Part shown: positions 1 through 42,903 of the stretch, one piece after another | Layout of the letters: each line of letters begins with the position of its first letter | Position numbering within the stretch: the stretch's first letter is position 1 | IMG/VR virus record: IMGVR_UViG_3300032373_000024 | Span: 1 to 46,488 of that record | DNA length: 46,488 nucleotides | Source of the DNA: a virus | Lineage: Duplodnaviria > Caudoviricetes | Reading direction: 5' to 3' (one strand) | Notes under the pieces: generated by a model | What the model was told of the DNA's origin: nothing | Database searches by the model: none | What the model saw: the letters and a program-made list of their open reading frames with translations, nothing else | Translations under genes and position numbers: made by a program

Positions 1-127
1 TGCTGAAGTTGTTGTCGAACTAGCCACCCCAACTGCATAAAGAAATCCACCAGCAGTACACCTTAGCGATGTAGAAGTGGAGTTAAGTGCCGAACCGTTG
101 CTAAACGACACTTCAGACGCGCTTTCT
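1..127. repeat. 127-bp terminal direct repeat (identical to 46362-46488); circular-assembly overlap
   Basis: Exact match of window start and end; it lies inside an uninterrupted ORF, and 127 is a common assembler k-mer size. Confidence 0.95.
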
Positions 128-1506
128 ACCTCAATCGCCTTGTCACCAGCACCATCAAAGTTGGCATCATCAGCATTAACCTTAGACCGTCTAACAATCA
201 TTCCGCTAGAACCTGAACCTTGCGCGCTACCACCTCTAAATTCTAAATTTGAAGCTCTAGAAACATATACCGCCGATTCCTCGGAAGTTTTACAGCAGTC
301 GTCATATATACCGCTCCTAGCATTAACTCTTGAAGCTTGCTGCATCCTTAACCCTGAGCCGTTAGCGCCTGAAAAAATGGAAAGATATAAGTTAGCGTTG
401 CCATGTACCTCTGCGCCCCTATATCCAGCGTTAACAACACCGGAAAGCACACTAACAACTCCATCACTTTCTAGCATTTGCCAACCAGTGCCATGGAGGT
501 TATTCATATCAATTCGACAGTCCAGCCACGGAAACCGACAGTTAAAACCCATAAACAACGGTTTAAGTGTTTCAGTGCCGATTATTCCCGTTGGAACGGT
601 TGATGTGTCTACACCAACAAATCCAGCATCAAGTTTAACTGAGTAATATACTCTTACGTCATCGTTAAGTGTAGCGCCTGAATTTAATGTTATTGACGTT
701 GTGCTAGTTTCTGTAAATGCGTTACTTGGCGAGCCGTTTATAACTGTATAAACTTCATAGTTTCCAAGCGCATAAGCTTTGGCCAAGTTAAAAACAGTTT
801 GCCCGGCTGTTGCTACAAACGCTTCATAGTCAGCCGATGTTATTTTAAAATGGCTATAACTTCCACCGAATACACCTATTCCTCCTGTTAGCAAGTGTCC
901 AGACTCGATCTGCAACTCTATAACAAAATCATCTGAGCATGTCGCGCCCTGGTAAAAATCAACGGCTGATTGTAGTGTTGCAAAGTCTGTCGGTATTCTT
1001 ACAAGTATATTTTCTTTAAATACAGATGTTGGGGGCAGTTGAGATAGTGATCTAGTTGCATCACCTGTGACTATGTTTAATTCGTTTTCGGTTACTGTTG
1101 TAGCGTCTACTATTTCGACTCTACCACCACCGCCGTTTCCATAGGTTCTCTCTACAAAATCAACAAATTCACCAATTTTATAATGAATTATTCTAGTGGC
1201 TGATGTTATGTCTGACATTTGAGCTACTTTCAGCCTGCTTCCGTCATCAATTAAAACATTTTCAGTTCTTGTGCCACTTTCAATTATGTAATATCCAGGC
1301 AATATCCAAAACTCTAAAACCCCAGAAGTTGGATCAGTTGCAGCCCCAGGTTGTGCTATTGGAGTTACCCCCTCATCACTGTAAATTGTCGCGTAAGTGA
1401 CCCCATCGTGCGCGTTAAACACTTCGACAGATTGAGAGCCAATCACATTTATCCCCGTTGGATCTGTATCTTTTAACGCTGTGAATGAATAATTAACAAA
1501 ACCCAT
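1..1506 (-). CDS. Tail fibre/tailspike, N-terminal 502 codons (continues across the join into 46361-45891; 658 aa total)
   Basis: Missed by the ORF track. ATG at 1506 overlaps the upstream stop (TAATG). Manually translated open frame MGFVNYSFTALKDTDPTG...IPTDFATLQSAVD..., with G/S/A/N-rich beta-helix-like repeats; last gene of the tail operon. Confidence 0.85.
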   Translation of the reverse strand, partial: MGFVNYSFTALKDTDPTGINVIGSQSVEVFNAHDGVTYATIYSDEGVTPIAQPGAATDPTSGVLEFWILPGYYIIESGTRTENVLIDDGSRLKVAQMSDITSATRIIHYKIGEFVDFVERTYGNGGGGRVEIVDATTVTENELNIVTGDATRSLSQLPPTSVFKENILVRIPTDFATLQSAVDFYQGATCSDDFVIELQIESGHLLTGGIGVFGGSYSHFKITSADYEAFVATAGQTVFNLAKAYALGNYEVYTVINGSPSNAFTETSTTSITLNSGATLNDDVRVYYSVKLDAGFVGVDTSTVPTGIIGTETLKPLFMGFNCRFPWLDCRIDMNNLHGTGWQMLESDGVVSVLSGVVNAGYRGAEVHGNANLYLSIFSGANGSGLRMQQASRVNARSGIYDDCCKTSEESAVYVSRASNLEFRGGSAQGSGSSGMIVRRSKVNADDANFDGAGDKAIEVESASEVSFSNGSALNSTSTSLRCTAGGFLYAVGVASSTTTSA

Positions 1507-3809
1507 TAGACTACTGCTCCTAAAATTTGTAAGCTGTTATTGCCAGCCGTTATTGTAACAGTGTTACCGTTAGTTTTTATTGCCAATCCTGATGACCCAC
1601 CGCCAACTCCATCTCCATCAACTCCAAATGTGCCGCCATTTGATCCTGGCGCGCCTATCGATCCATTTTCACCTGTGACACCATCAACACCACCACCAGC
1701 GCCAGTGGCTAAGCCACCCACGCCTCCACCGCCGCCGACTAGTCCTTGACCTCCACCGCCGCCGTCTCCACCATTGCCAAAATAAACAGGGCCTGGTTCT
1801 TCTATACACTCTCCAAGCATACCTTCACCACCACCGCCGCCAGCATAGATAATTCCAAATCCGTTATCTATTATTGCATCAGTGGTTAAATTGATCGCAT
1901 CCCCACCAGATAAACCAGACCCTACGCCTGCGACAGCACAAGAAACCGTATCTGGCCCCGCATCTCCACCCGTTCCACCAGCACCACCCGCTCCGTATAT
2001 TTGACCCAAAATGACCAGTTTTAATGTTGCCCCTGCATTGGTAAATGCGCCTTGACTAAATCCGAAATTTGCCGTTGTGGATGATCCAAGCTGTACGCCA
2101 GCATTAATTACAACAACATATTCTCTTGCCTCTGTTGTGTCTGTTAGTTCGTCCGTTAATAGATAATCAGTTTTATCGGTTGTGATATATAAATCTGCAT
2201 TTGGTGGAGTGGATGCGATATAAGAAAGCCCAGTAACATTGTATTGACCATCTTTTGATGATGATTTCATAGATACGCATTGGCAAGTCGTTGTAACGTT
2301 ATTTAGTCCTCCGTCTTTTATTCTCGAAGTGTTAATAGTGAATATTGATCCTAGCCCCATGAAGCCACCAGCCACGTTGCCTATATACCGTTGGTCTAAA
2401 TCAAAACTAATTCTTTTAGGAGGTTGAGAAAATCGGTTTATTTGCCTTTGAGCAAACCCAGTGCCAATTTGATTATCTTCAACCGAGTTTCCTAGCCAAT
2501 CAGATACTAAAGGCTTTGGCTCTGATATGTTATCAATATCTGCTGGTGCTTCAACTATTCCGTCAATCGCTGTGAATCTTTTTCGATAGTTTTTCTTTTC
2601 TTTGCTTTCGGTTGCATCGAATTTATCCCACCAGATCGCTTGTCTAGTAACTTGTTTTTTGTAGTCATCAACAACTTTTACAGAGCCTTGCAATAAGTGC
2701 TCTCCCTCGACTAAATCAATCACTGGATTAGCAAAATCTGGAACGGCGATCAATTTAATCTCGTTGTTTATTACATCAACGTAAGACGATAACCCGGCTA
2801 TTTGTATTAATTCATTAAGTAGTTTTTTGACATCTTCCGGCTTAAATAAGTATCTAGTTAAATTGTAAGAGGATAAATCGCCAGCCTTTAACGTAGCCCA
2901 ATCAGCCGTTGGAATAAAAGAGGCTGGTATTCGAGTATGATCGGTTATCAATGTTGTGATTATATCGATTATGTTAACATTATCGAAAACTAAGCATTTT
3001 TGAATTGTTTCTAATGCGCTGTGAGCTTTTGCAGTAGTCCCTGCTTGCGCTCTGACAATGGTCATAGTGGTTGTGGTAGCGACCGTGTAGCTCATTATTT
3101 CTTTTTCTATAGCAATATGTCCAGTAGCAGATACAGCCCCGTATTCCTCGGCTACTGGTGTTGTAAATGATAATGTAGTGGCTACATCGGTTATTCCAGC
3201 AGAAAGCTCACCTTCGCTAACGGTTGGCGCTTTGGCTTTAACTTCTTCAGTCAATATAAGCTCGTCGATCATTTTGACAGACCATGATCCTTGCTCGCTT
3301 GGATAACTGATTGAGTCAATAACGTATGATTCTATTGTGCAATTAGCTTCAGAATAAGCATCTGGATTGAATCCTCGAATAACTCTTGCTCGTCTGTTTT
3401 TATAATGATTTCTTGCTAATAACTTTAATACGTGGCTTCCTTCTACTCTTCGATCAGCATAAGCGGATGTTAACTCGAATGTATCATTACTAATAAAGTC
3501 TTTTAATGTTGCGCTTGCTGTTGCTCTCATACCCATGGATTTACCTGGGTCAATCTTAGGCTCTGTGGTCGACACTTTTTCCAAAAAGGGAAAGTGATCT
3601 ACCCCGAAAATTTGCTGGTCAGCATAACGGTAAGTCCTAAAATCTACTCCGGTATAAGCGGTTATATCATCGGTAGTCTTAGGCGTTCCGTAGCTGTCCG
3701 GTTGCATTGCGTAAGTCGCATCATTAGCAGGATCGTTAATGTCTAGAATAATTTCCAATATCGTAAAAGCTTTGCGCTGGTTCGTTGCCTTTATTAGATC
3801 AAAACTCAT
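1506..3809 (-). CDS. Tail tip / baseplate hub-like protein with Gly-rich C-terminal domain
   Basis: 767 aa, second gene after the tape measure; C-terminal GGGGG-rich segment typical of tail-tip proteins. Confidence 0.7.
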   Translation of the reverse strand: MSFDLIKATNQRKAFTILEIILDINDPANDATYAMQPDSYGTPKTTDDITAYTGVDFRTYRYADQQIFGVDHFPFLEKVSTTEPKIDPGKSMGMRATASATLKDFISNDTFELTSAYADRRVEGSHVLKLLARNHYKNRRARVIRGFNPDAYSEANCTIESYVIDSISYPSEQGSWSVKMIDELILTEEVKAKAPTVSEGELSAGITDVATTLSFTTPVAEEYGAVSATGHIAIEKEIMSYTVATTTTMTIVRAQAGTTAKAHSALETIQKCLVFDNVNIIDIITTLITDHTRIPASFIPTADWATLKAGDLSSYNLTRYLFKPEDVKKLLNELIQIAGLSSYVDVINNEIKLIAVPDFANPVIDLVEGEHLLQGSVKVVDDYKKQVTRQAIWWDKFDATESKEKKNYRKRFTAIDGIVEAPADIDNISEPKPLVSDWLGNSVEDNQIGTGFAQRQINRFSQPPKRISFDLDQRYIGNVAGGFMGLGSIFTINTSRIKDGGLNNVTTTCQCVSMKSSSKDGQYNVTGLSYIASTPPNADLYITTDKTDYLLTDELTDTTEAREYVVVINAGVQLGSSTTANFGFSQGAFTNAGATLKLVILGQIYGAGGAGGTGGDAGPDTVSCAVAGVGSGLSGGDAINLTTDAIIDNGFGIIYAGGGGGEGMLGECIEEPGPVYFGNGGDGGGGGQGLVGGGGGVGGLATGAGGGVDGVTGENGSIGAPGSNGGTFGVDGDGVGGGSSGLAIKTNGNTVTITAGNNSLQILGAVV

Positions 3810-4570
3810 GCAACACCGTTTATCGTTAGACTAATCGAACTTAATAGCGAGCTTGTAAAAGTCGGTTTTGATGCTGTCCACGTCCCAAAAACTGCTTGTG
3901 TAGTGTTTGATTTGTCCCATAAGAAAAAAACAGGAATTCCCCGTGACGCATTCATAAAGTTTTTATAATCGGCTTCCATAAATGATGTGGGTACGTGATT
4001 AATTGTAAATGATTCGGTTGTCCCTCGCGCTCTAACAATTGAACCAGCGAATTGATTGGTCTCAGTTCTTCCAGTGGTTACTATGTCGTTACTTGTCCAT
4101 CTACCAGGCTGATATCCAACTGAAACATTTTTAGGAAATTGCATACTTTCACCAAAATATATTTCACCAACTTCAAGTGATGTGTTAGTACAAGTAAACT
4201 CAACTTTTAAGACTGTGTATGTTGCTTTAGTAAATACGAAAAAAACAGGTTGGTTATCTGACATTCCGCTAGCAGAAGCTAAAGTATTTCCGCCTGAATC
4301 TTTCACCGTAACCGTGCAAGCCGTTGAGCCAAAGTTTGCGCCTGAAATTGCTAAATAATCTGTATCTGTGAATGACCCATCGAATTGCACCCATGATGCA
4401 GAGTTTGCAGGCTTCCATCCCAATGTAGTCATACCATCGTGGACGCGATTAACATTAGCACTGTCATGGCTTGCTGTTACCGCCGCAGTGCTTGATAAGG
4501 TCGCATAAGCCAACCGAGGCTCTTTATCTACCGCCGCCGCTTCACCTGTTACTACAAATACTTGACTCAT
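3806..4570 (-). CDS. Distal tail (Dit-like) minor tail protein
   Basis: 254 aa, directly after the tape measure, beta-rich, ATGA-coupled. Confidence 0.6.
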   Translation of the reverse strand: MSQVFVVTGEAAAVDKEPRLAYATLSSTAAVTASHDSANVNRVHDGMTTLGWKPANSASWVQFDGSFTDTDYLAISGANFGSTACTVTVKDSGGNTLASASGMSDNQPVFFVFTKATYTVLKVEFTCTNTSLEVGEIYFGESMQFPKNVSVGYQPGRWTSNDIVTTGRTETNQFAGSIVRARGTTESFTINHVPTSFMEADYKNFMNASRGIPVFFLWDKSNTTQAVFGTWTASKPTFTSSLLSSISLTINGVA

Positions 4571-6834
4571 CCGCCCAACCTTTCATTCAATTCTATTGAT
4601 GCCATTATTCTTTGAGTGTATTCCGCAGGTAATGGCTCGTCTGGGTCTCTTTCTCTTATTGCTTCGGCTATCCCTTCAAGACCTCTAAATTCGATCACTT
4701 CCCTCGATTGTATAGGCTCTTGACGTTGTGGCTGTGACTCTTGTGCTCCTGCAAAGCTGATATTTCCACCTCCGCCACTTCCGCCGCCACCTCCTCCGCT
4801 GGTGATGCTTTTTATTAATCCGCCTGTTTTAATTAAGCTAGCGGTGGTATATGCAGCAGCAACTAAGGGAGCGTAAGGGCCACCAGTTGACATACCAGAA
4901 GCCCATGCAGCGACCGCCGCCTCCTTGCCTTTGATTACAGCGCTAGTTACCGCTAATGCTTTTTGTGCTTTGCTTGCTTTTTTACCAAAATTAGATAGCC
5001 CACTAATCGCATCACTAAAGGCTTGATCTCTGAATTGTTTTTTTAATTCCTCATGGTATCTTGTTATTTCAGCACTTTCTATCGCTGCCTCTCTTTCTAT
5101 ATTTAGCCTTTCTTCCTCAAGAATTCTTTTGTTTTCTATTTCAATAAGATCAAATTCTTTTAAAGTCTGTATCTTTTCAAATCTTCTAGCAAATGCAGCA
5201 TTATTAGCATCTATTTGCAGTTGTTCGAAGTCTTGATCTGGCGTTGTTCCGGTTGTTGTTGCTGATTCTCCTTCGCCTTCGTCAATCAATGATACTGATG
5301 TGGTTAGCAGCTCCTTTTGCTTGAACAATTCTGCTAGCTCTTTCCGTAAAGCTCTAGCCTCATTGGTTATTTTTGATACTCCTAACCCTCTGCCGCTTAC
5401 ATTTTTTAATGCTTCCTCGGCTTTCCTGTCTAGGATTATTATATTTTTAGTCATCTCTAAAATGTCACCATTTAGATCGGATAACTCTTTTTCTCTTAAT
5501 TCCTTTTGAGTTTTTCCCAAATTCATTAAAGCTGTTCTTTGTGCGTTAACCTGCTCTGTTAATTGCTTAGTTCTCTTTTCAGCCTCAGTTTCAGCTTTAG
5601 AATAAGACAGTATAGCTACTGTCGCTAGGACGGCAACACCTACAGGCCCACCTAATAACGCAAGTCCACCCCTTAACGCGCCAGATGCTCTACCTGCTAT
5701 TGTTGCGCTTGCTGCATAGGCTTTGTTTGCTGCTGTGGCTCTTAGTGTTGATGCGGCTAAAGTGTTGTTTGCCACGGTCAATCTATCTCTAGCTATTTTA
5801 GATTTTACAATTCCACCGGATGCGTTAAACGTAGATGCTGCAAGTGCCTGCTCTGCTTTTGCCGCAGTTAAAGCGGATGCGGCGTTTGCGTGTTCTGTTC
5901 TTACTAATGCTATACTTGCCGATGTAGATGATATTTTTGCCGCCGTTGCAGCTACAAGCCCACTTAGTAATCTAGCACCATAAATGCTTGCTGTTGTTGC
6001 CGCTGCAATTACCAATAAGTCTAAGTTTTCAGAAAGAGCCACAACCGCATCACCGGCGAACGTCATAGTCCTGGATATATCTTCATTGGTGCCAACAAAT
6101 TTAATCGCATTGTTTCTAGCTAAAGTTAGGCTGCTAGCAAGTGTAACAGTTGCTTTTGCAAATCTTTTATCAATAATGTCAGCGCCTTTCAAAGCTGCTT
6201 CAAAAAATTCTTTGGATGTGACCGTACCCTTTCTAACTTCTTCTCTAAGCTTATTTACCGAACCTTTAAATCTATCAGACCCTTTTGAAACGGCTTCAAG
6301 AAGTGGTCTTGCACCATCGATTAATGAGTTGAATTCCTGAGCTTGTATGACCGAGCCGCCAATTGCTTGCCTTAGCTGCAATAATGACCCAGCCGCTTCT
6401 GCCGTGCTTGATCCTTGTACGGTGATGGCTTTAGATGCCAACTCGGTAAACTTTGCTATATCGTTCTGAGATGCGCCTAGATCTGTTGAAGCGGCTGAAA
6501 TTCCTCCATATAGCTTTGCTACTTGCTCAAGTGGTGATCTTGCTTCTTGAGCTATTCTAACTACGTCTGACTGCGCTTTGAATAGGCTTTGAGTTGATGT
6601 TATAGAAGTTGCTAAGGAATTATTTACGCCTTTCCATGCGTCAGAATAAGCGGCTATTTGACCTATCTGTAAGGCGGCTGCAACAGCGATCACAGTGCCT
6701 TTAAGTTTACCAAATGATTTATCTGTGTTGTCTGCCGATTCACCAAGACCTTTCATCTTGCGATCTAAACTTCCAACTCGGCTTTCAGCTTTCCGGCTAT
6801 CGATTTTAATTCTTATTGTCTTTTCGATAGCCAT
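4567..6834 (-). CDS. Tape measure protein (~755 aa; probable start 6834)
   Basis: Ala-rich helical protein with tape-measure N-terminal motif (LLQLRQAIGGSVIQAQEFNSLIDGA); ATG at 6834 overlaps the upstream stop (TAATG). Confidence 0.92.
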   Translation of the reverse strand: MAIEKTIRIKIDSRKAESRVGSLDRKMKGLGESADNTDKSFGKLKGTVIAVAAALQIGQIAAYSDAWKGVNNSLATSITSTQSLFKAQSDVVRIAQEARSPLEQVAKLYGGISAASTDLGASQNDIAKFTELASKAITVQGSSTAEAAGSLLQLRQAIGGSVIQAQEFNSLIDGARPLLEAVSKGSDRFKGSVNKLREEVRKGTVTSKEFFEAALKGADIIDKRFAKATVTLASSLTLARNNAIKFVGTNEDISRTMTFAGDAVVALSENLDLLVIAAATTASIYGARLLSGLVAATAAKISSTSASIALVRTEHANAASALTAAKAEQALAASTFNASGGIVKSKIARDRLTVANNTLAASTLRATAANKAYAASATIAGRASGALRGGLALLGGPVGVAVLATVAILSYSKAETEAEKRTKQLTEQVNAQRTALMNLGKTQKELREKELSDLNGDILEMTKNIIILDRKAEEALKNVSGRGLGVSKITNEARALRKELAELFKQKELLTTSVSLIDEGEGESATTTGTTPDQDFEQLQIDANNAAFARRFEKIQTLKEFDLIEIENKRILEEERLNIEREAAIESAEITRYHEELKKQFRDQAFSDAISGLSNFGKKASKAQKALAVTSAVIKGKEAAVAAWASGMSTGGPYAPLVAAAYTTASLIKTGGLIKSITSGGGGGGSGGGGNISFAGAQESQPQRQEPIQSREVIEFRGLEGIAEAIRERDPDEPLPAEYTQRIMASIELNERLGG

Positions 6835-36727: not shown

Positions 36728-37345
36728 TTAACCCCACTGATTAGCCATTCCTTGCGCTATACCTTTAAACGTAGTTGACCTTATTTTCCATCGGTATTTT
36801 GATGGCGGCAAGTGAAAAATCCTCTCTCTGACGTTTTTTGGTAGTTCCATCATTTCATCATAGACATTGTTTTCTTCAATAAGCGGCTTGAGGTTATGCA
36901 AATGAAGACCTGTTTTCTTTTGTTCTAAGTGTCCGAATTGATACGGTTGCACATAGTTAGCTTTTGGAATACCCCCTAACCTGTGAAGAACTCCAACAGG
37001 ATTCTCAAAACAAACTCTCTCAGCTTTAGACTTGCATAACTCCCAAAACTCCATTGTCCATTTAACAGCGTCAAGTCTTTCCTGGTACCTTGGCATTCCT
37101 TCGCCATAGTGTCTATTCCCAGATACACATAACTTAGTACATTCTGGATGAGCGATAATTAAATCAAAATATCCTGATTCGGTTTTGTTTAGGTATTCGA
37201 TGATATCTCCTTGGTGGTGCCTGCCTGGTGAATCAGTTGGCAGTAAGTCGCAACTAACAGAATCATGCCCTTTATTTTTAAAAGCGTCTCTAACGACTCC
37301 GCTGTACTCGCAAGCAACTAGGACATTTTTCTTTAATACATTCAT
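36728..37345 (-). CDS. Short DNA cytosine methyltransferase-like protein
   Basis: VLVACEYSG.VRDAF, DLIIAHPECT, ENPVG, QP.QFGH...K.T.L and RS.TF.GIA..MA.QWG motifs. Confidence 0.75.
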   Translation of the reverse strand: MNVLKKNVLVACEYSGVVRDAFKNKGHDSVSCDLLPTDSPGRHHQGDIIEYLNKTESGYFDLIIAHPECTKLCVSGNRHYGEGMPRYQERLDAVKWTMEFWELCKSKAERVCFENPVGVLHRLGGIPKANYVQPYQFGHLEQKKTGLHLHNLKPLIEENNVYDEMMELPKNVRERIFHLPPSKYRWKIRSTTFKGIAQGMANQWG

Positions 37346-37398
37346 ATAAACTTACACCATCGGTTAAGCAGTTCTATCATTATTTAACCCTCTTTGGT

Positions 37399-38160
37399 TT
37401 ATCCACAAAATCCAGAATCACAGCCAAACATGTCATCTTGCAATGGTGAGTATGACCCGCCGCCATGATCGGCCCTTTCTTTTACCTCGCGTATTCCGCA
37501 AGCCCCGCCCATTCGATGCGGTCTAAACATGTATTTTGGCTTTCCACTTCTTTCTCCTACACCAAGATCATCCTCAAGCGTTATAACCTTAATAATGTCG
37601 CGCTCATCTAAATTTTGAATATCTTTAAGCGTGGCATTAATGCACGGTGAACACTCTTTTGAGCGATAAGGCAAAACATCAAAGCCAGCTTTATTTAATA
37701 AATCATCCCTTTGCCCAATTGTAAATTTTGCGAGTGGACACAATAAAGTCCTGCCGCCGTGGTTCGGAGAGTTTTTTGTTTTTTCTGGATAATTCTTCCT
37801 GTTTTCTGATTCGATGCGCATAATACCCGTGTAACAAGTCGCTTTTTTTTCGGGATCAACAATATCAAGCCAGTTAAGCGCTGGAAGTATTTTTAACTCG
37901 TAAGTACAAAAACCCATACCGTTTGCCGGAAATGCTTTTTTTCTCTTCGCTAGCGCTGACATGCCCTCGCTTGATATCTCATGAAACGTGCCGCCCGCTT
38001 TCTCTACAAAGCCTTTAACTTCTTCTACCCTTGCAGGCCATTCTTTAGATGCCCACTGAGTGTTAGAGTAAGCAACAACTAAATCATCTAAATTATTATC
38101 AATAGCCCACTGAATAAGTGCTACAGAGTCGTTTCCGCAGCTGGAGAATATTATATTCAT
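37399..38160 (-). CDS. PAPS-reductase-family (PP-loop) protein
   Basis: SCGNDS PP-loop, CT.ELKI.P, G..R.ES..R, EC.PC and C-terminal GCDSGFCG motifs. Confidence 0.8.
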   Translation of the reverse strand: MNIIFSSCGNDSVALIQWAIDNNLDDLVVAYSNTQWASKEWPARVEEVKGFVEKAGGTFHEISSEGMSALAKRKKAFPANGMGFCTYELKILPALNWLDIVDPEKKATCYTGIMRIESENRKNYPEKTKNSPNHGGRTLLCPLAKFTIGQRDDLLNKAGFDVLPYRSKECSPCINATLKDIQNLDERDIIKVITLEDDLGVGERSGKPKYMFRPHRMGGACGIREVKERADHGGGSYSPLQDDMFGCDSGFCG

Positions 38161-41681: not shown

Positions 41682-41933
41682 TTAAGTTAAGTTGCTTGCT
41701 GCGTACTCCATAGCCTCATCGATATCACAAAAAACATTTTCATCAATAGTAAATATATTATCCGTGTATGATTTAATTATTGAATTGCAGTCTATTTCTT
41801 CCATTGCAAAACCATAAAACGTTTGCAGTAGATTGGCTTTTCGATTATAAATATCTCTTTGCATTATGCTTAGCTGAAGTTCGAGAGACTCTATACCACC
41901 GATCCTTTTTGATGCTTCATTTTGATCAATCAC
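41682..41933 (-). CDS. Hypothetical protein; first ORF after the ncRNA region
   Basis: 83 aa, AAGGAG RBS. Confidence 0.6.
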   Translation of the reverse strand: MIDQNEASKRIGGIESLELQLSIMQRDIYNRKANLLQTFYGFAMEEIDCNSIIKSYTDNIFTIDENVFCDIDEAMEYAASNLT

Positions 41934-42147
41934 TATATTCTCCTTATTTAAGTTAATACGGTCACTTGACCTTTAGTTGATATACAACAAAGTTTATCTA
42001 TATTCTTATCACTCGCAGTATGCAGAACAGTTTTTAGAGTTGTCGCTCCGATATCCAACTTATGATAGTTGGCACATCAACGTCACCTGCTTTATCCACG
42101 GTCTAAATGTTGTAATGATAAGTAGAACTATCTAATCTAATTTTGGT

Positions 42148-42287
42148 AAGTGTTTATATGAAGGGGAGCTAACGGAGGTTTTAAACCCTGATAAGTGCCA
42201 CTCTAACGATGCACCCCTCTCTCCTTGCAATGAGCTTATCCGCATCTTTCGCGAGCAAGATATTAACTCCACCACATATAAACACTT
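42148..42287 (-). ncRNA. Structured ncRNA candidate, twin unit A (140 nt)
   Basis: Perfect 13-bp closing stem, UGGU/CCUU internal loop, GGAGUUAAU/GUUAGCUCC stem, multibranch interior. Confidence 0.65.
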
Positions 42288-42364
42288 TACTGCATTTAAA
42301 GCCTGCATGGCATTCGGATTCAATTTTTGCGGAATGGGGTTCAATTCTGGTATAAGAACCATTG

Positions 42365-42504
42365 AGTTTATATATGAAGGGGAGCTAACACCCCTTGCCA
42401 CGAGGATTTTACGTTTAACTCACTGTCTACACAAAGATTTCTCTTTTTAGGAGTAGCGCCCATTTAAATAGGCTATCTAATCAACTCCACCACATATATA
42501 AACT
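42365..42504 (-). ncRNA. Structured ncRNA candidate, twin unit B (140 nt)
   Basis: Perfect 12-bp closing stem, same internal loop and inner stem as unit A, different interior. Confidence 0.65.
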
Positions 42505-42514
42505 TTAAGTTAGT

Positions 42515-42686
42515 TGGTGCGCTTGGAAGGAGTCGAACCTTCAAAGGAGAAACTTTCGCCGTAGATAGGTAATTAACCTATCCCGCTACTTCGTTTCAGC
42601 TATTAACACTACTAAGTACTTTTCGTGCTTTTGCTAATTTCCCTAGCCAATTTGTGACCTGCGTGTACCTATTCCGCCACAAGCGC
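42515..42686 (-). ncRNA. tRNA-Leu-like RNA (172 nt) with degenerate anticodon arm and very large variable domain
   Basis: Acceptor GCGCTTG/CAAGCGC plus A-CCA; Leu-type D arm GCG-GAATAGGTACA-CGC; T arm GAAGG-TTCGACT-CCTTC. Confidence 0.8.
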
Positions 42687-42699
42687 TTTTAACTAACTT

Positions 42700-42864
42700 T
42701 GTGAAAGCCGTAAATTTCAGGCATAAAAAAAGGTCGAACTGTTCTGACCTCTTGACAATCAAGGGCGGAATAAGACATAAGTGGAAGGGATTAACCCACG
42801 AATATCAAAAAACCAGAACACTTCAACCTTAACTATCTCATTCCTAAAAAACACGACTTCCACA
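42700..42864 (-). promoter_or_regulatory. Long leader hairpin / attenuator candidate
   Basis: Outer TGTGGAAGTCGT/ACGGCTTTCACA stem; inner 17-nt arms followed by a U-tract. Confidence 0.55.
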
Positions 42865-42874
42865 CCGCAAAACT

Positions 42875-42903
42875 ATTATCTTACTTTTTTCCTTAATGGT
42901 CAA
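42875..42903 (-). promoter_or_regulatory. Sigma70-like promoter of the ncRNA region
   Basis: TTGACC-17 bp-GATAAT. Confidence 0.7.

What the first reader, a model, noticed from the sequence alone, without database searches (positions are those of the whole stretch)
41985..42903. Top candidate: a phage polycistronic structured-RNA operon
Seen: about 0.9 kb with no credible CDS in an otherwise densely coding genome. Downstream of TTGACC-17-GATAAT lie, nearly end to end, a 165-nt leader hairpin, a 172-nt tRNA-like RNA, two 140-nt twin RNAs and a weaker fourth unit. Each is closed by its own long stem; the tRNA-like one has an extra flanking AAGUUAGUU/AACUAACUU stem. G-U pairs favour the minus strand in all but the fourth unit. 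Established precedent: T4 and T5 tRNA clusters include stable non-tRNA species cut from precursors. Inference: one transcript is processed by RNase III/P into several RNAs acting as decoys, sponges or guides against host translation or defence. I cannot assign it to a known family.
Basis: partly seen in the sequence, partly recalled or inferred. Interest (0 to 1): 0.85.

Follow-up and report, generated by a model that had tools for sequence, protein, structure and literature searches.

The report
Phage small-RNA cassettes with swappable cores
A bacterial virus carries a row of five non-coding RNA modules, two of which share a fixed paired frame around unrelated inserts with 24 other virus sequences; a host enzyme (RNase III) is predicted to cut these inserts out as small RNAs that likely act as decoys against host defences.

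Summary
The array is real. On the minus strand a sigma-70-type promoter precedes a 165-nt terminator-like leader hairpin, a 172-nt tRNA-Leu-shaped RNA with an expanded middle, two 140-nt units and a 130-nt fifth module. Rfam and ARAGORN find nothing. The twins share only their closing helix. I found 28 copies of it on 25 contigs, with covarying outer and inner pairs, a nearly invariant mismatched core and interiors unrelated to each other (378 pairs). The helix fits E. coli RNase III rules: a distal-box AG on each strand, 22 bp apart (27 and 23 of 28). The same 12-nt register gives the annotated 5' ends of T5 RNAIII, RNAIV and RNA2H (3 of 3). So this works like the T5 stable-RNA region, as swappable cassettes in small phages. 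Cutting, expression and function are not shown; the interiors are no more folded than shuffles. The fifth unit is real: it moves as a module and shows a compensatory pair. Read-through must pass the leader's terminator. This scan noted similar stem-framed cassettes before on other phage DNA. New variant of a known kind.

The parts
42875..42903 (-). sigma-70-type promoter (predicted)
   Evidence: 10 of 12 consensus match (chance level in that scan). A similar site precedes the leader in 7 of 10 arrays, by a pattern written after seeing them.
42700..42864 (-). Unit 1: leader. A 99-nt terminator-like hairpin (42829-42731) followed by a U tract to 42725; a 5' segment (42844-42834) can pair 11 bp with the hairpin loop (42777-42767); the 5' part can also pair with the stretch after the U tract
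   Evidence: folds; same plan in 9 other arrays; own 5' segment versus own loop -10.3 against -5.8 kcal/mol for foreign loops, 0 of 20000 permutations, own best in 5 of 10 rows
42515..42686 (-). Unit 2: tRNA-Leu-shaped RNA (acceptor stem, D arm, T arm, A73-CCA) whose anticodon and variable region is replaced by about 110 nt; 9-bp flanking stem 42699-42691 with 42515-42507
   Evidence: near-identical frame with other middles in L144 (127 nt) and L148 (118 nt); 47 of 119 loci of a D-arm/T-arm scan have the same plan
42365..42504 (-). Unit 3 (twin A): about 25-bp closing helix with RNase III-type boxes around a unique interior; predicted released RNA 42492-42375, 118 nt
42288..42364 (-). 77-nt spacer, weakly folded; part of it lies just before unit 5 in genomes without twin B
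   Evidence: z +0.4; contig joint 42130-42292 in run X1; shared stretch upstream of unit 5 in L143, seen by eye
42148..42287 (-). Unit 4 (twin B): same helix, unrelated interior; predicted released RNA 42274-42159, 116 nt
   Evidence: a contig in run X2 joins 42158 to 42277 without this interior
41996..42125 (-). Unit 5: 130-nt conserved module with a short closing helix and an inner hairpin; structure otherwise uncertain
   Evidence: 88% over 181 nt in L143; found alone with foreign flanks in runs X5-X7, one study; C-G to U-A at 42071/42056; U.G to C-G at 42115 and A-U to G.U at 42116

Best explanation
This is an array of swappable small-RNA cassettes: a conserved paired frame around variable inserts, likely transcribed early by host RNA polymerase through a terminator-like leader, predicted to be cut out by host RNase III (twins) and tRNA-maturing enzymes (unit 2), and likely serving as decoy RNAs against host RNA-targeting defence. 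Shown by sequence comparison: the units, the covarying helix, the exchange of interiors and of whole cassettes, and the fit to RNase III boxes. Inferred steps: (1) pairing of the leader's 5' segment with its loop would let polymerase read past the terminator (about 0.5); (2) RNase III would cut each twin helix in the middle, leaving 118- and 116-nt RNAs with a 2-nt 3' overhang (about 0.75); (3) RNase P and 3' trimming would mature unit 2, which may be leucylated because it keeps A73, CCA and a Leu-type D arm (recalled identity rules; about 0.5); (4) the invariant mismatched end of the released RNA would be bound by a protein or tune the cut, and the variable inserts would soak up host nucleases or RNA sensors that differ between hosts (about 0.35).
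For: 28 copies on 25 contigs (scans; tally). In 13 aligned copies 89.9% of cells pair, 8 of 26 pairs change on both sides, 0 of 500 shuffles reach the score, and slid registers give 38-55%. U.G alternates with C-G and G-C with G.U, as expected for RNA on this strand. Outer half-site: AG 12 nt before the predicted cut in 27 of 28, A/U pair at proximal-box position 2 in 28 of 28, U at position 3 in 28 of 28, A/U at position 4 in 27 of 28; a second AG in the symmetric place on the other strand in 23 of 28. The span is 22 bp, the idealised RNase III substrate length (PMC3867540; boxes from PMC1540722). In scans that did not ask for these letters, outer AG stood in 18 of 18 extended helices against 12 of 84 chance matches and inner AG in 13 of 18 against 6 of 84; in a scan made after the idea, 4 of 5 and 4 of 5 against 2 of 15. 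The same register gives the annotated 5' end of T5 RNAIII, RNAIV and RNA2H (3 of 3), of 0 of 5 other T5 stable RNAs and 2 of 25 T5 tRNAs. Interiors are unrelated even where up to 44 flanking bases are identical; 3 of 23 carry a tRNA T loop against 0.07 expected. Neighbouring slots hold true tRNAs in L134, L139, L261. RNase III takes part in T4 tRNA maturation (PMC4810235).
Against: No transcript, end or cut has been observed. Interiors are no more stable than shuffles (mean z -0.09 in 13; -0.15 in 15), whereas the five T5 interiors scored -0.4 to -2.1. The outer proximal box lacks the preferred C at position 1 in all 28 copies, and the inner one carries a G-C at position 2, which weakens E. 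coli RNase III binding (PMC1540722), so a clean double cut is not assured. The distal box is said not to be conserved among substrates (PMC3867540), so the fixed AG may partly reflect common descent. I set the register after seeing the AG. Several copies stand alone between genes (L135, L137, L247, L282), which needs no RNA cargo. The decoy step has no direct support: no target or partner was found, and no window protein is shared by all 11 carrier records compared.
Confidence: 0.5

Rival explanations
1. Only the helix matters. It is a portable RNase III site, like those of T7, that nicks or cuts early transcripts to set their stability, or binds RNase III without efficient cutting and ties it up; the interior is filler.
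For: Interiors unrelated and not more folded than shuffles; stand-alone copies between genes and two dispersed copies in single contigs (L260/L261, L247/L248); invariant non-consensus inner proximal box with U.U, G.U, G-C and U.C, and such pairs can uncouple binding from cutting (PMC1540722).
Against: T7 R1.1 closes with a 4-nt loop, whereas every copy here keeps 58-111 nt inside; two copies sit side by side in a gene-free array; interiors are replaced whole between identical flanks; some are tRNA-shaped.
Confidence: 0.25
2. The interiors are base-pairing guides or antisense RNAs (against host transcripts or against the leader switches of competing phages), held by a protein that reads the invariant helix end.
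For: Constant frame with hypervariable, weakly folded interior; leader loops carry phage-specific pairing segments.
Against: No interior matches the phage genomes held above chance (14 hits against 18.9 for shuffles); no antisense excess to the E. coli rRNA operon (8.7 against 8.7 nt); no shared phage protein; not the plan of viral sgRNAs (10.64898/2026.06.01.729453). The true host's transcriptome could not be tested.
Confidence: 0.15
3. The inverted repeats act as DNA: ends of a miniature mobile element or single-strand hairpins used for cassette recombination, with no RNA role.
For: Cassettes are gained, lost and swapped; the phage encodes RecE/RecT-type proteins.
Against: Flanks covary as inverted, not direct, repeats; G.U wobble exchanges occur on one strand; RNase III box geometry on both strands; neighbours are tRNAs; no tyrosine integrase in the genome.
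Confidence: 0.07

Closest known systems
Phage T5 stable RNAs RNAIII, RNAIV, RNA2H (NC_005859, annotated 'stable RNA with unknown functions')
   Same: 103-172 nt, long closing helix around a branched interior, inside an RNA array; annotated 5' end lies 12 nt after an AG in the flank, the register predicted for the twins.
   Different: No shared core sequence (0 hits in 22 kb of T5); T5 interiors fold better than shuffles; here one fixed helix end recurs in unrelated small phages with a new interior each time.
T5 RNA1 and RNA2 (annotated tRNA-like stable RNAs) and T4 species 1 RNA (rnaC)
   Same: Acceptor stem and T arm (plus D arm in T5) around an expanded middle; T5 RNA1 has the same T-stem sequence as unit 2.
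   Different: Unit 2 is longer (172 against 125-144 nt), encodes A73-CCA, has its own flanking stem and an unrelated middle.
T7 RNase III sites (R1.1) and rRNA processing stalks
   Same: Helix with distal and proximal boxes in the same register.
   Different: T7 R1.1 has a tetraloop and processes mRNA; rRNA stalks enclose one constant RNA. Here the enclosed 72-125-nt RNA varies, and the inner half-site is invariant and non-consensus.
P4 CI / P1 C4 RNA immunity leaders (recalled) and Rfam C4 families
   Same: Leader with a terminator and competing short pairings, beside a tRNA-shaped RNA.
   Different: No Rfam match; the pairing between unit 1's loop and unit 2's D arm is not significant (28 of 500 shuffles) and not seen in L144 or L148; no integrase found.
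Y RNAs (recalled) and viral sgRNAs (10.64898/2026.06.01.729453)
   Same: Y RNAs: conserved end-to-end helix with a variable interior. vsgRNAs: small phage RNAs that decoy a defence protein.
   Different: No Rfam Y RNA match; vsgRNAs have a 5' guide, a tracrRNA tail and a terminator, none of which the twins have.

Membership tests
E. coli-type RNase III substrate | About 22-bp helix from distal box to distal box | tested here: met
   positions -9 to +12 pair in 21-23 of 23 copies apart from the two core mismatches; length from PMC3867540
E. coli-type RNase III substrate | Distal box U-A, U.G and A/U-rich proximal box on at least one side | tested here: met
   outer half: AG 27 of 28, positions 2-4 met in 28, 28 and 27 of 28; position 1 C in 0 of 28
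E. coli-type RNase III substrate | No inhibitory G-C at proximal-box position 2 on the second side | tested here: not met
   G-C in 23 of 23, fixed by the search pattern; one box set suffices for a cut (PMC1540722)
E. coli-type RNase III substrate | Cleavage by the enzyme | not testable with these tools
   needs an in vitro or rnc-mutant test
T5/T4 stable non-tRNA RNAs | Helix-closed or tRNA-shaped non-coding unit within a phage RNA array | tested here: met
T5/T4 stable non-tRNA RNAs | Sequence homology to a T5 or T4 species | tested here: not met
   no T4 or T5 hit in blastn of the array; core absent from the T5 and T4 regions fetched
T5/T4 stable non-tRNA RNAs | Accumulation as a stable RNA in infected cells | not testable with these tools
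   no infection RNA data at hand
tRNA (RF00005), unit 2 | Acceptor stem, D arm, T arm, CCA | tested here: met
tRNA (RF00005), unit 2 | Anticodon arm with 7-nt loop and normal length; score above 29 bits | tested here: not met
   16.6 bits; ARAGORN none; predicted loop of 5 nt, 172 nt in all
Any Rfam 15 family, units 1 and 3-5 | Covariance-model score above the gathering cut-off | tested here: not met
   0 in the window; only far-below-threshold miRNA and snoRNA hits; in 20 homologous loci only tRNA and one unrelated int-alpA hit
P4 CI / P1 C4 immunity RNA | Conserved pairing of a tRNA-shaped RNA with leader targets | tested here: inconclusive
   28 of 500 shuffles reach the window's score; not evident in L144 or L148
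Viral sgRNA | 5' guide, repeat-antirepeat stem, tracrRNA tail with terminator | tested here: not met
   compared by plan; the twins vary in the middle and have no U tail

The most novel reading that the evidence does not exclude
Phages share a programmable small-RNA cassette system: a host-RNase-III-excised frame whose invariant mismatched end docks on a specific protein, carrying hypervariable inserts that are exchanged between unrelated phages and set which host defence or transcript is hit. It would be an RNA-only counter-defence library, and would also explain the long-orphan T5 stable RNAs.
Probability: 0.15. Interest if true: 0.88.

Novelty: new variant of a known kind. Interest (0 to 1): 0.62.

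Why it matters
T4 and T5 stable non-tRNA RNAs have been annotated as of unknown function for decades. This family separates frame from insert across 28 natural copies and gives single-nucleotide predictions for the cut, which also fit three T5 RNAs in a laboratory phage. That makes two questions directly testable: are these RNAs RNase III products, and does function lie in the helix or in the insert? If inserts are decoys or guides, small phages carry an overlooked, swappable RNA counter-defence toolkit; the frame could also serve to release chosen RNAs in bacteria.

Tried and rejected
Rfam and ARAGORN: nothing in the window; relaxed ARAGORN with introns gave 77 low-quality calls, ignored. Cultured phages: no homologous array by blastn of the whole region, of each twin arm, of unit 5 or of L144 (short queries, weak sensitivity); core absent from the nearest capsid relative MW805362 and from the MG592596 replication region. 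Bacterial genomes: 0 hits in two scans, both with the stricter GAG form of the core. Expression: no RNA holder listed. Loci dropped before counts: L002, L142 and 8 of the 11 loci (chance matches); 84 of 102 loci and 14 of 20 (no extended helix); L145 (fully paired core, no array); L175 (weak helix); L257 (identical to L199); repeats of the same contig; L136 and L122 (the window itself). L296 (10 of 14 pairs) was kept by eye. Leader specificity by RNAduplex energy was weak (own best in 4 of 10 rows, 2 of 10 columns); only the contiguous-helix test was clear. Unit 1 loop against unit 2 D arm: not significant. A hairpin that looked shared between unit 2 and the L189 interior did not reach E 0.05. 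Reading the twin helix as an acceptor stem with a CCA-like end gave three different registers among copies with T loops, by eye: rejected. Integron attC, retron and Y RNA readings were compared by eye with recalled features and did not fit. The 89-aa ORF: rejected. The L128 row of alignment A2 was not homologous and was ignored. One search returned nothing; its parts were redone. Literature searches listed no description of this family; the library lacks most subscription and older papers. In PMC10690425, 6 supplementary files held no core motif, but 3 files, which may hold the models, could not be searched, so prior listing among its 10,006 candidates is not excluded.

Full report
Setting. 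The window is a complete 46,488-base virus record with direct terminal repeats. It has siphovirus-type head and tail genes, RecE/RecT and NinG (37 ORFs scanned) and no tyrosine integrase. Its capsid and replication proteins are nearest to phages of Paraglaciecola, Vibrio and Aeromonas among cultured records, so a gammaproteobacterial host is likely but not shown. The array lies on the coding strand about 0.65 kb upstream of the replication genes.

Observation. On the minus strand a promoter-like site (42903-42875) precedes five units. Unit 1 folds as a 165-nt hairpin (z -8.4); unit 2 as a 172-nt tRNA shape with a long middle; units 3 and 4 as 140-nt helix-closed domains (z -4.2); unit 5 is weak (z -0.5). 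Rfam gives nothing at threshold and only a 16.6-bit tRNA score below it; ARAGORN gives nothing.

The twin family. Pattern scans of viral and metagenome contigs gave 28 distinct copies on 25 contigs, the window's two included (dropped loci are listed under Tried and rejected). In 13 copies found with the stricter patterns, 89.9% of cells pair over 26 positions and 8 pairs change on both sides; 0 of 500 shuffles reach this and slid registers fall to 38-55% (the central pairs were demanded by the patterns and say nothing). When the mismatch positions were freed, G.U and U.C stayed in 8 of 9 loci and U.U became A-U once; the ninth, L145, is fully paired and was set aside. When the inner and outer helices were freed, 18 of 102 and 5 of 20 loci had at least 11 of 14 free positions paired, well apart from a chance bulk centred on 6. 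The invariant part is thus about 9 bp, AUGUGGUGG with CCCCUUCAU. Interiors span 58-111 nt and are unrelated: the best of 378 pairwise scores is 22, within the 20-27 of shuffled sets, even where 32-44 flanking bases are identical. They are not more stable than shuffles. Three of 23 hold a tRNA T loop, against 0.07 expected. Carriers include phages with few or no proteins in common with the window, and no window protein hits all 11 records compared.

Cassette behaviour. Eight arrays read in full (L001, L128, L131, L134, L138, L139, L143, L144) and L148 show a leader hairpin followed by units each closed by its own inverted repeat. The same slot holds a twin-type unit in one phage, a tRNA-like RNA or true tRNAs in another. 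Contigs from public DNA runs show the same at close range: one joins 42130 to 42292 without twin B, others join 42158 to 42277 and 42374 to 42695 with other or unknown letters between (joints at 80% likeness in metagenomes may come from related phages, which is how I read them; X1 may be the window's own source). Some copies stand alone between genes.

Why RNase III. PMC1540722 (passages) defines a 2-bp distal box (U-A, U.G) and a 4-bp proximal box within 11 bp of the cut; its numbering, laid on the T7 R1.1 hairpin, puts the cut 12 nt after the A of the distal AG on the same strand (that natural R1.1 is cut there is recalled). PMC3867540 (passages) gives 22 bp from box to box. In the family an AG opens the outer helix in 27 of 28 copies; with it as register, proximal positions 2, 3 and 4 obey the rules in 28, 28 and 27 of 28 and position 1 in 0 of 28; a second AG lies in the exactly symmetric place on the other strand in 23 of 28. 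Chance matches to the same patterns carry these AGs in 12 and 6 of 84. An independent check: the annotated 5' ends of the three helix-closed T5 RNAs lie 12 nt after an AG (3 of 3), against 0 of 5 other T5 stable RNAs and 2 of 25 tRNAs; I could not check how those ends were annotated. Against: the review says the distal box is not conserved among substrates; PMC5371410 (passages) found no perfect consensus match among new E. coli sites; Aquifex RNase III ignores the distal box (PMC3074117, passages); and the inner proximal box is invariant yet unfavourable. That invariance is the unexplained core of the finding: it would become the end of the released RNA.

Unit 2. It keeps a Leu-type D arm, T arm and A73-CCA. 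L144 and L148 carry nearly the same frame with other, shorter middles. Charging by leucyl-tRNA synthetase is an inference from recalled identity rules.

Unit 1. All 10 arrays examined begin with an 80-104-nt hairpin and a U tract. The segment just upstream pairs with the own loop better than with foreign loops (-10.3 against -5.8 kcal/mol, 0 of 20000 permutations; own best in 5 of 10 rows; a first, looser test was weak). It suggests an attenuator that gates the array and the replication genes behind it.

Unit 5. It is 88% identical over 181 nt in L143, appears alone between foreign flanks at 42125-41996 in three runs of one study, and shows one compensatory and two pair-keeping changes. It is real; its fold is only partly fixed.

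Function. I commit to processed decoy RNAs, since inserts are long, replaced whole, sometimes tRNA-shaped and placed among tRNAs, and phage tRNAs are known to neutralise PARIS (PMC11464382, search listing only). This step is inference. Guide tests were negative within what I could search. A helix-only role remains a serious rival.

Novelty. T5 and T4 supply the kind, with RNase III known in T4 tRNA maturation (PMC4810235, passages). Ten literature searches listed no description of this family; PMC10690425 (passages; 6 of 9 supplementary files searched) may hold it among its candidates. The vsgRNA preprint (first of 9 parts and passages) describes another plan. This scan's earlier notes report stem-framed cassettes in other phages; they are unchecked and not counted as support. 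Verdict: new variant of a known kind, interest 0.62.

Noticed in passing
L171 (T5) 2285-2390, 3809-3980, 4839-4941: The annotated 5' ends of T5 RNAIII, RNA2H and RNAIV lie exactly 12 nt after an AG in a long flanking helix, suggesting that they are RNase III products; testable in a laboratory phage.
   Followed up: partly
L003-L121: tRNA-Leu-shaped RNAs with 100-130-nt expanded middles are common in viral contigs (47 of 119 loci, 35 distinct middles); most escape ARAGORN-type calling and some escape Rfam.
   Followed up: partly
L128:2604-2752, L148:2780-2922, L148:2375-2491, L143:2608-2726, L144:2779-2918, L137:2407-2485: Further helix-closed cassette types with other frames sit in the same arrays; one is nearly identical in L143 and L148. 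Several outer stems also start with AG and an A/U-rich run.
   Followed up: no
window 42777-42764 and 42678-42668: The leader loop can pair 11 bp with the D arm of unit 2; 28 of 500 shuffles do as well, and it is not evident in L144 or L148.
   Followed up: yes
L145:2501-2584: A fully Watson-Crick version of the core helix without array context; relative or coincidence unclear.
   Followed up: no
window 1-1505: 1.5 kb at the start of the record without a minus-strand ORF of 50 aa or more; it holds one 189-aa plus-strand ORF (77-646). Not examined.
   Followed up: no
window 41930-41975: A 46-nt stretch between unit 5 and the next gene is 87% identical in L128's record and similar in L143: a possible shared module boundary.
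   Followed up: no
L023:2230-2464: Rfam match to permuted tmRNA directly upstream of an expanded tRNA-like unit.
   Followed up: no
window 36728-38160: A DNA methyltransferase-like gene beside a PAPS-reductase-like gene, a possible DNA-modification pair.
   Followed up: no
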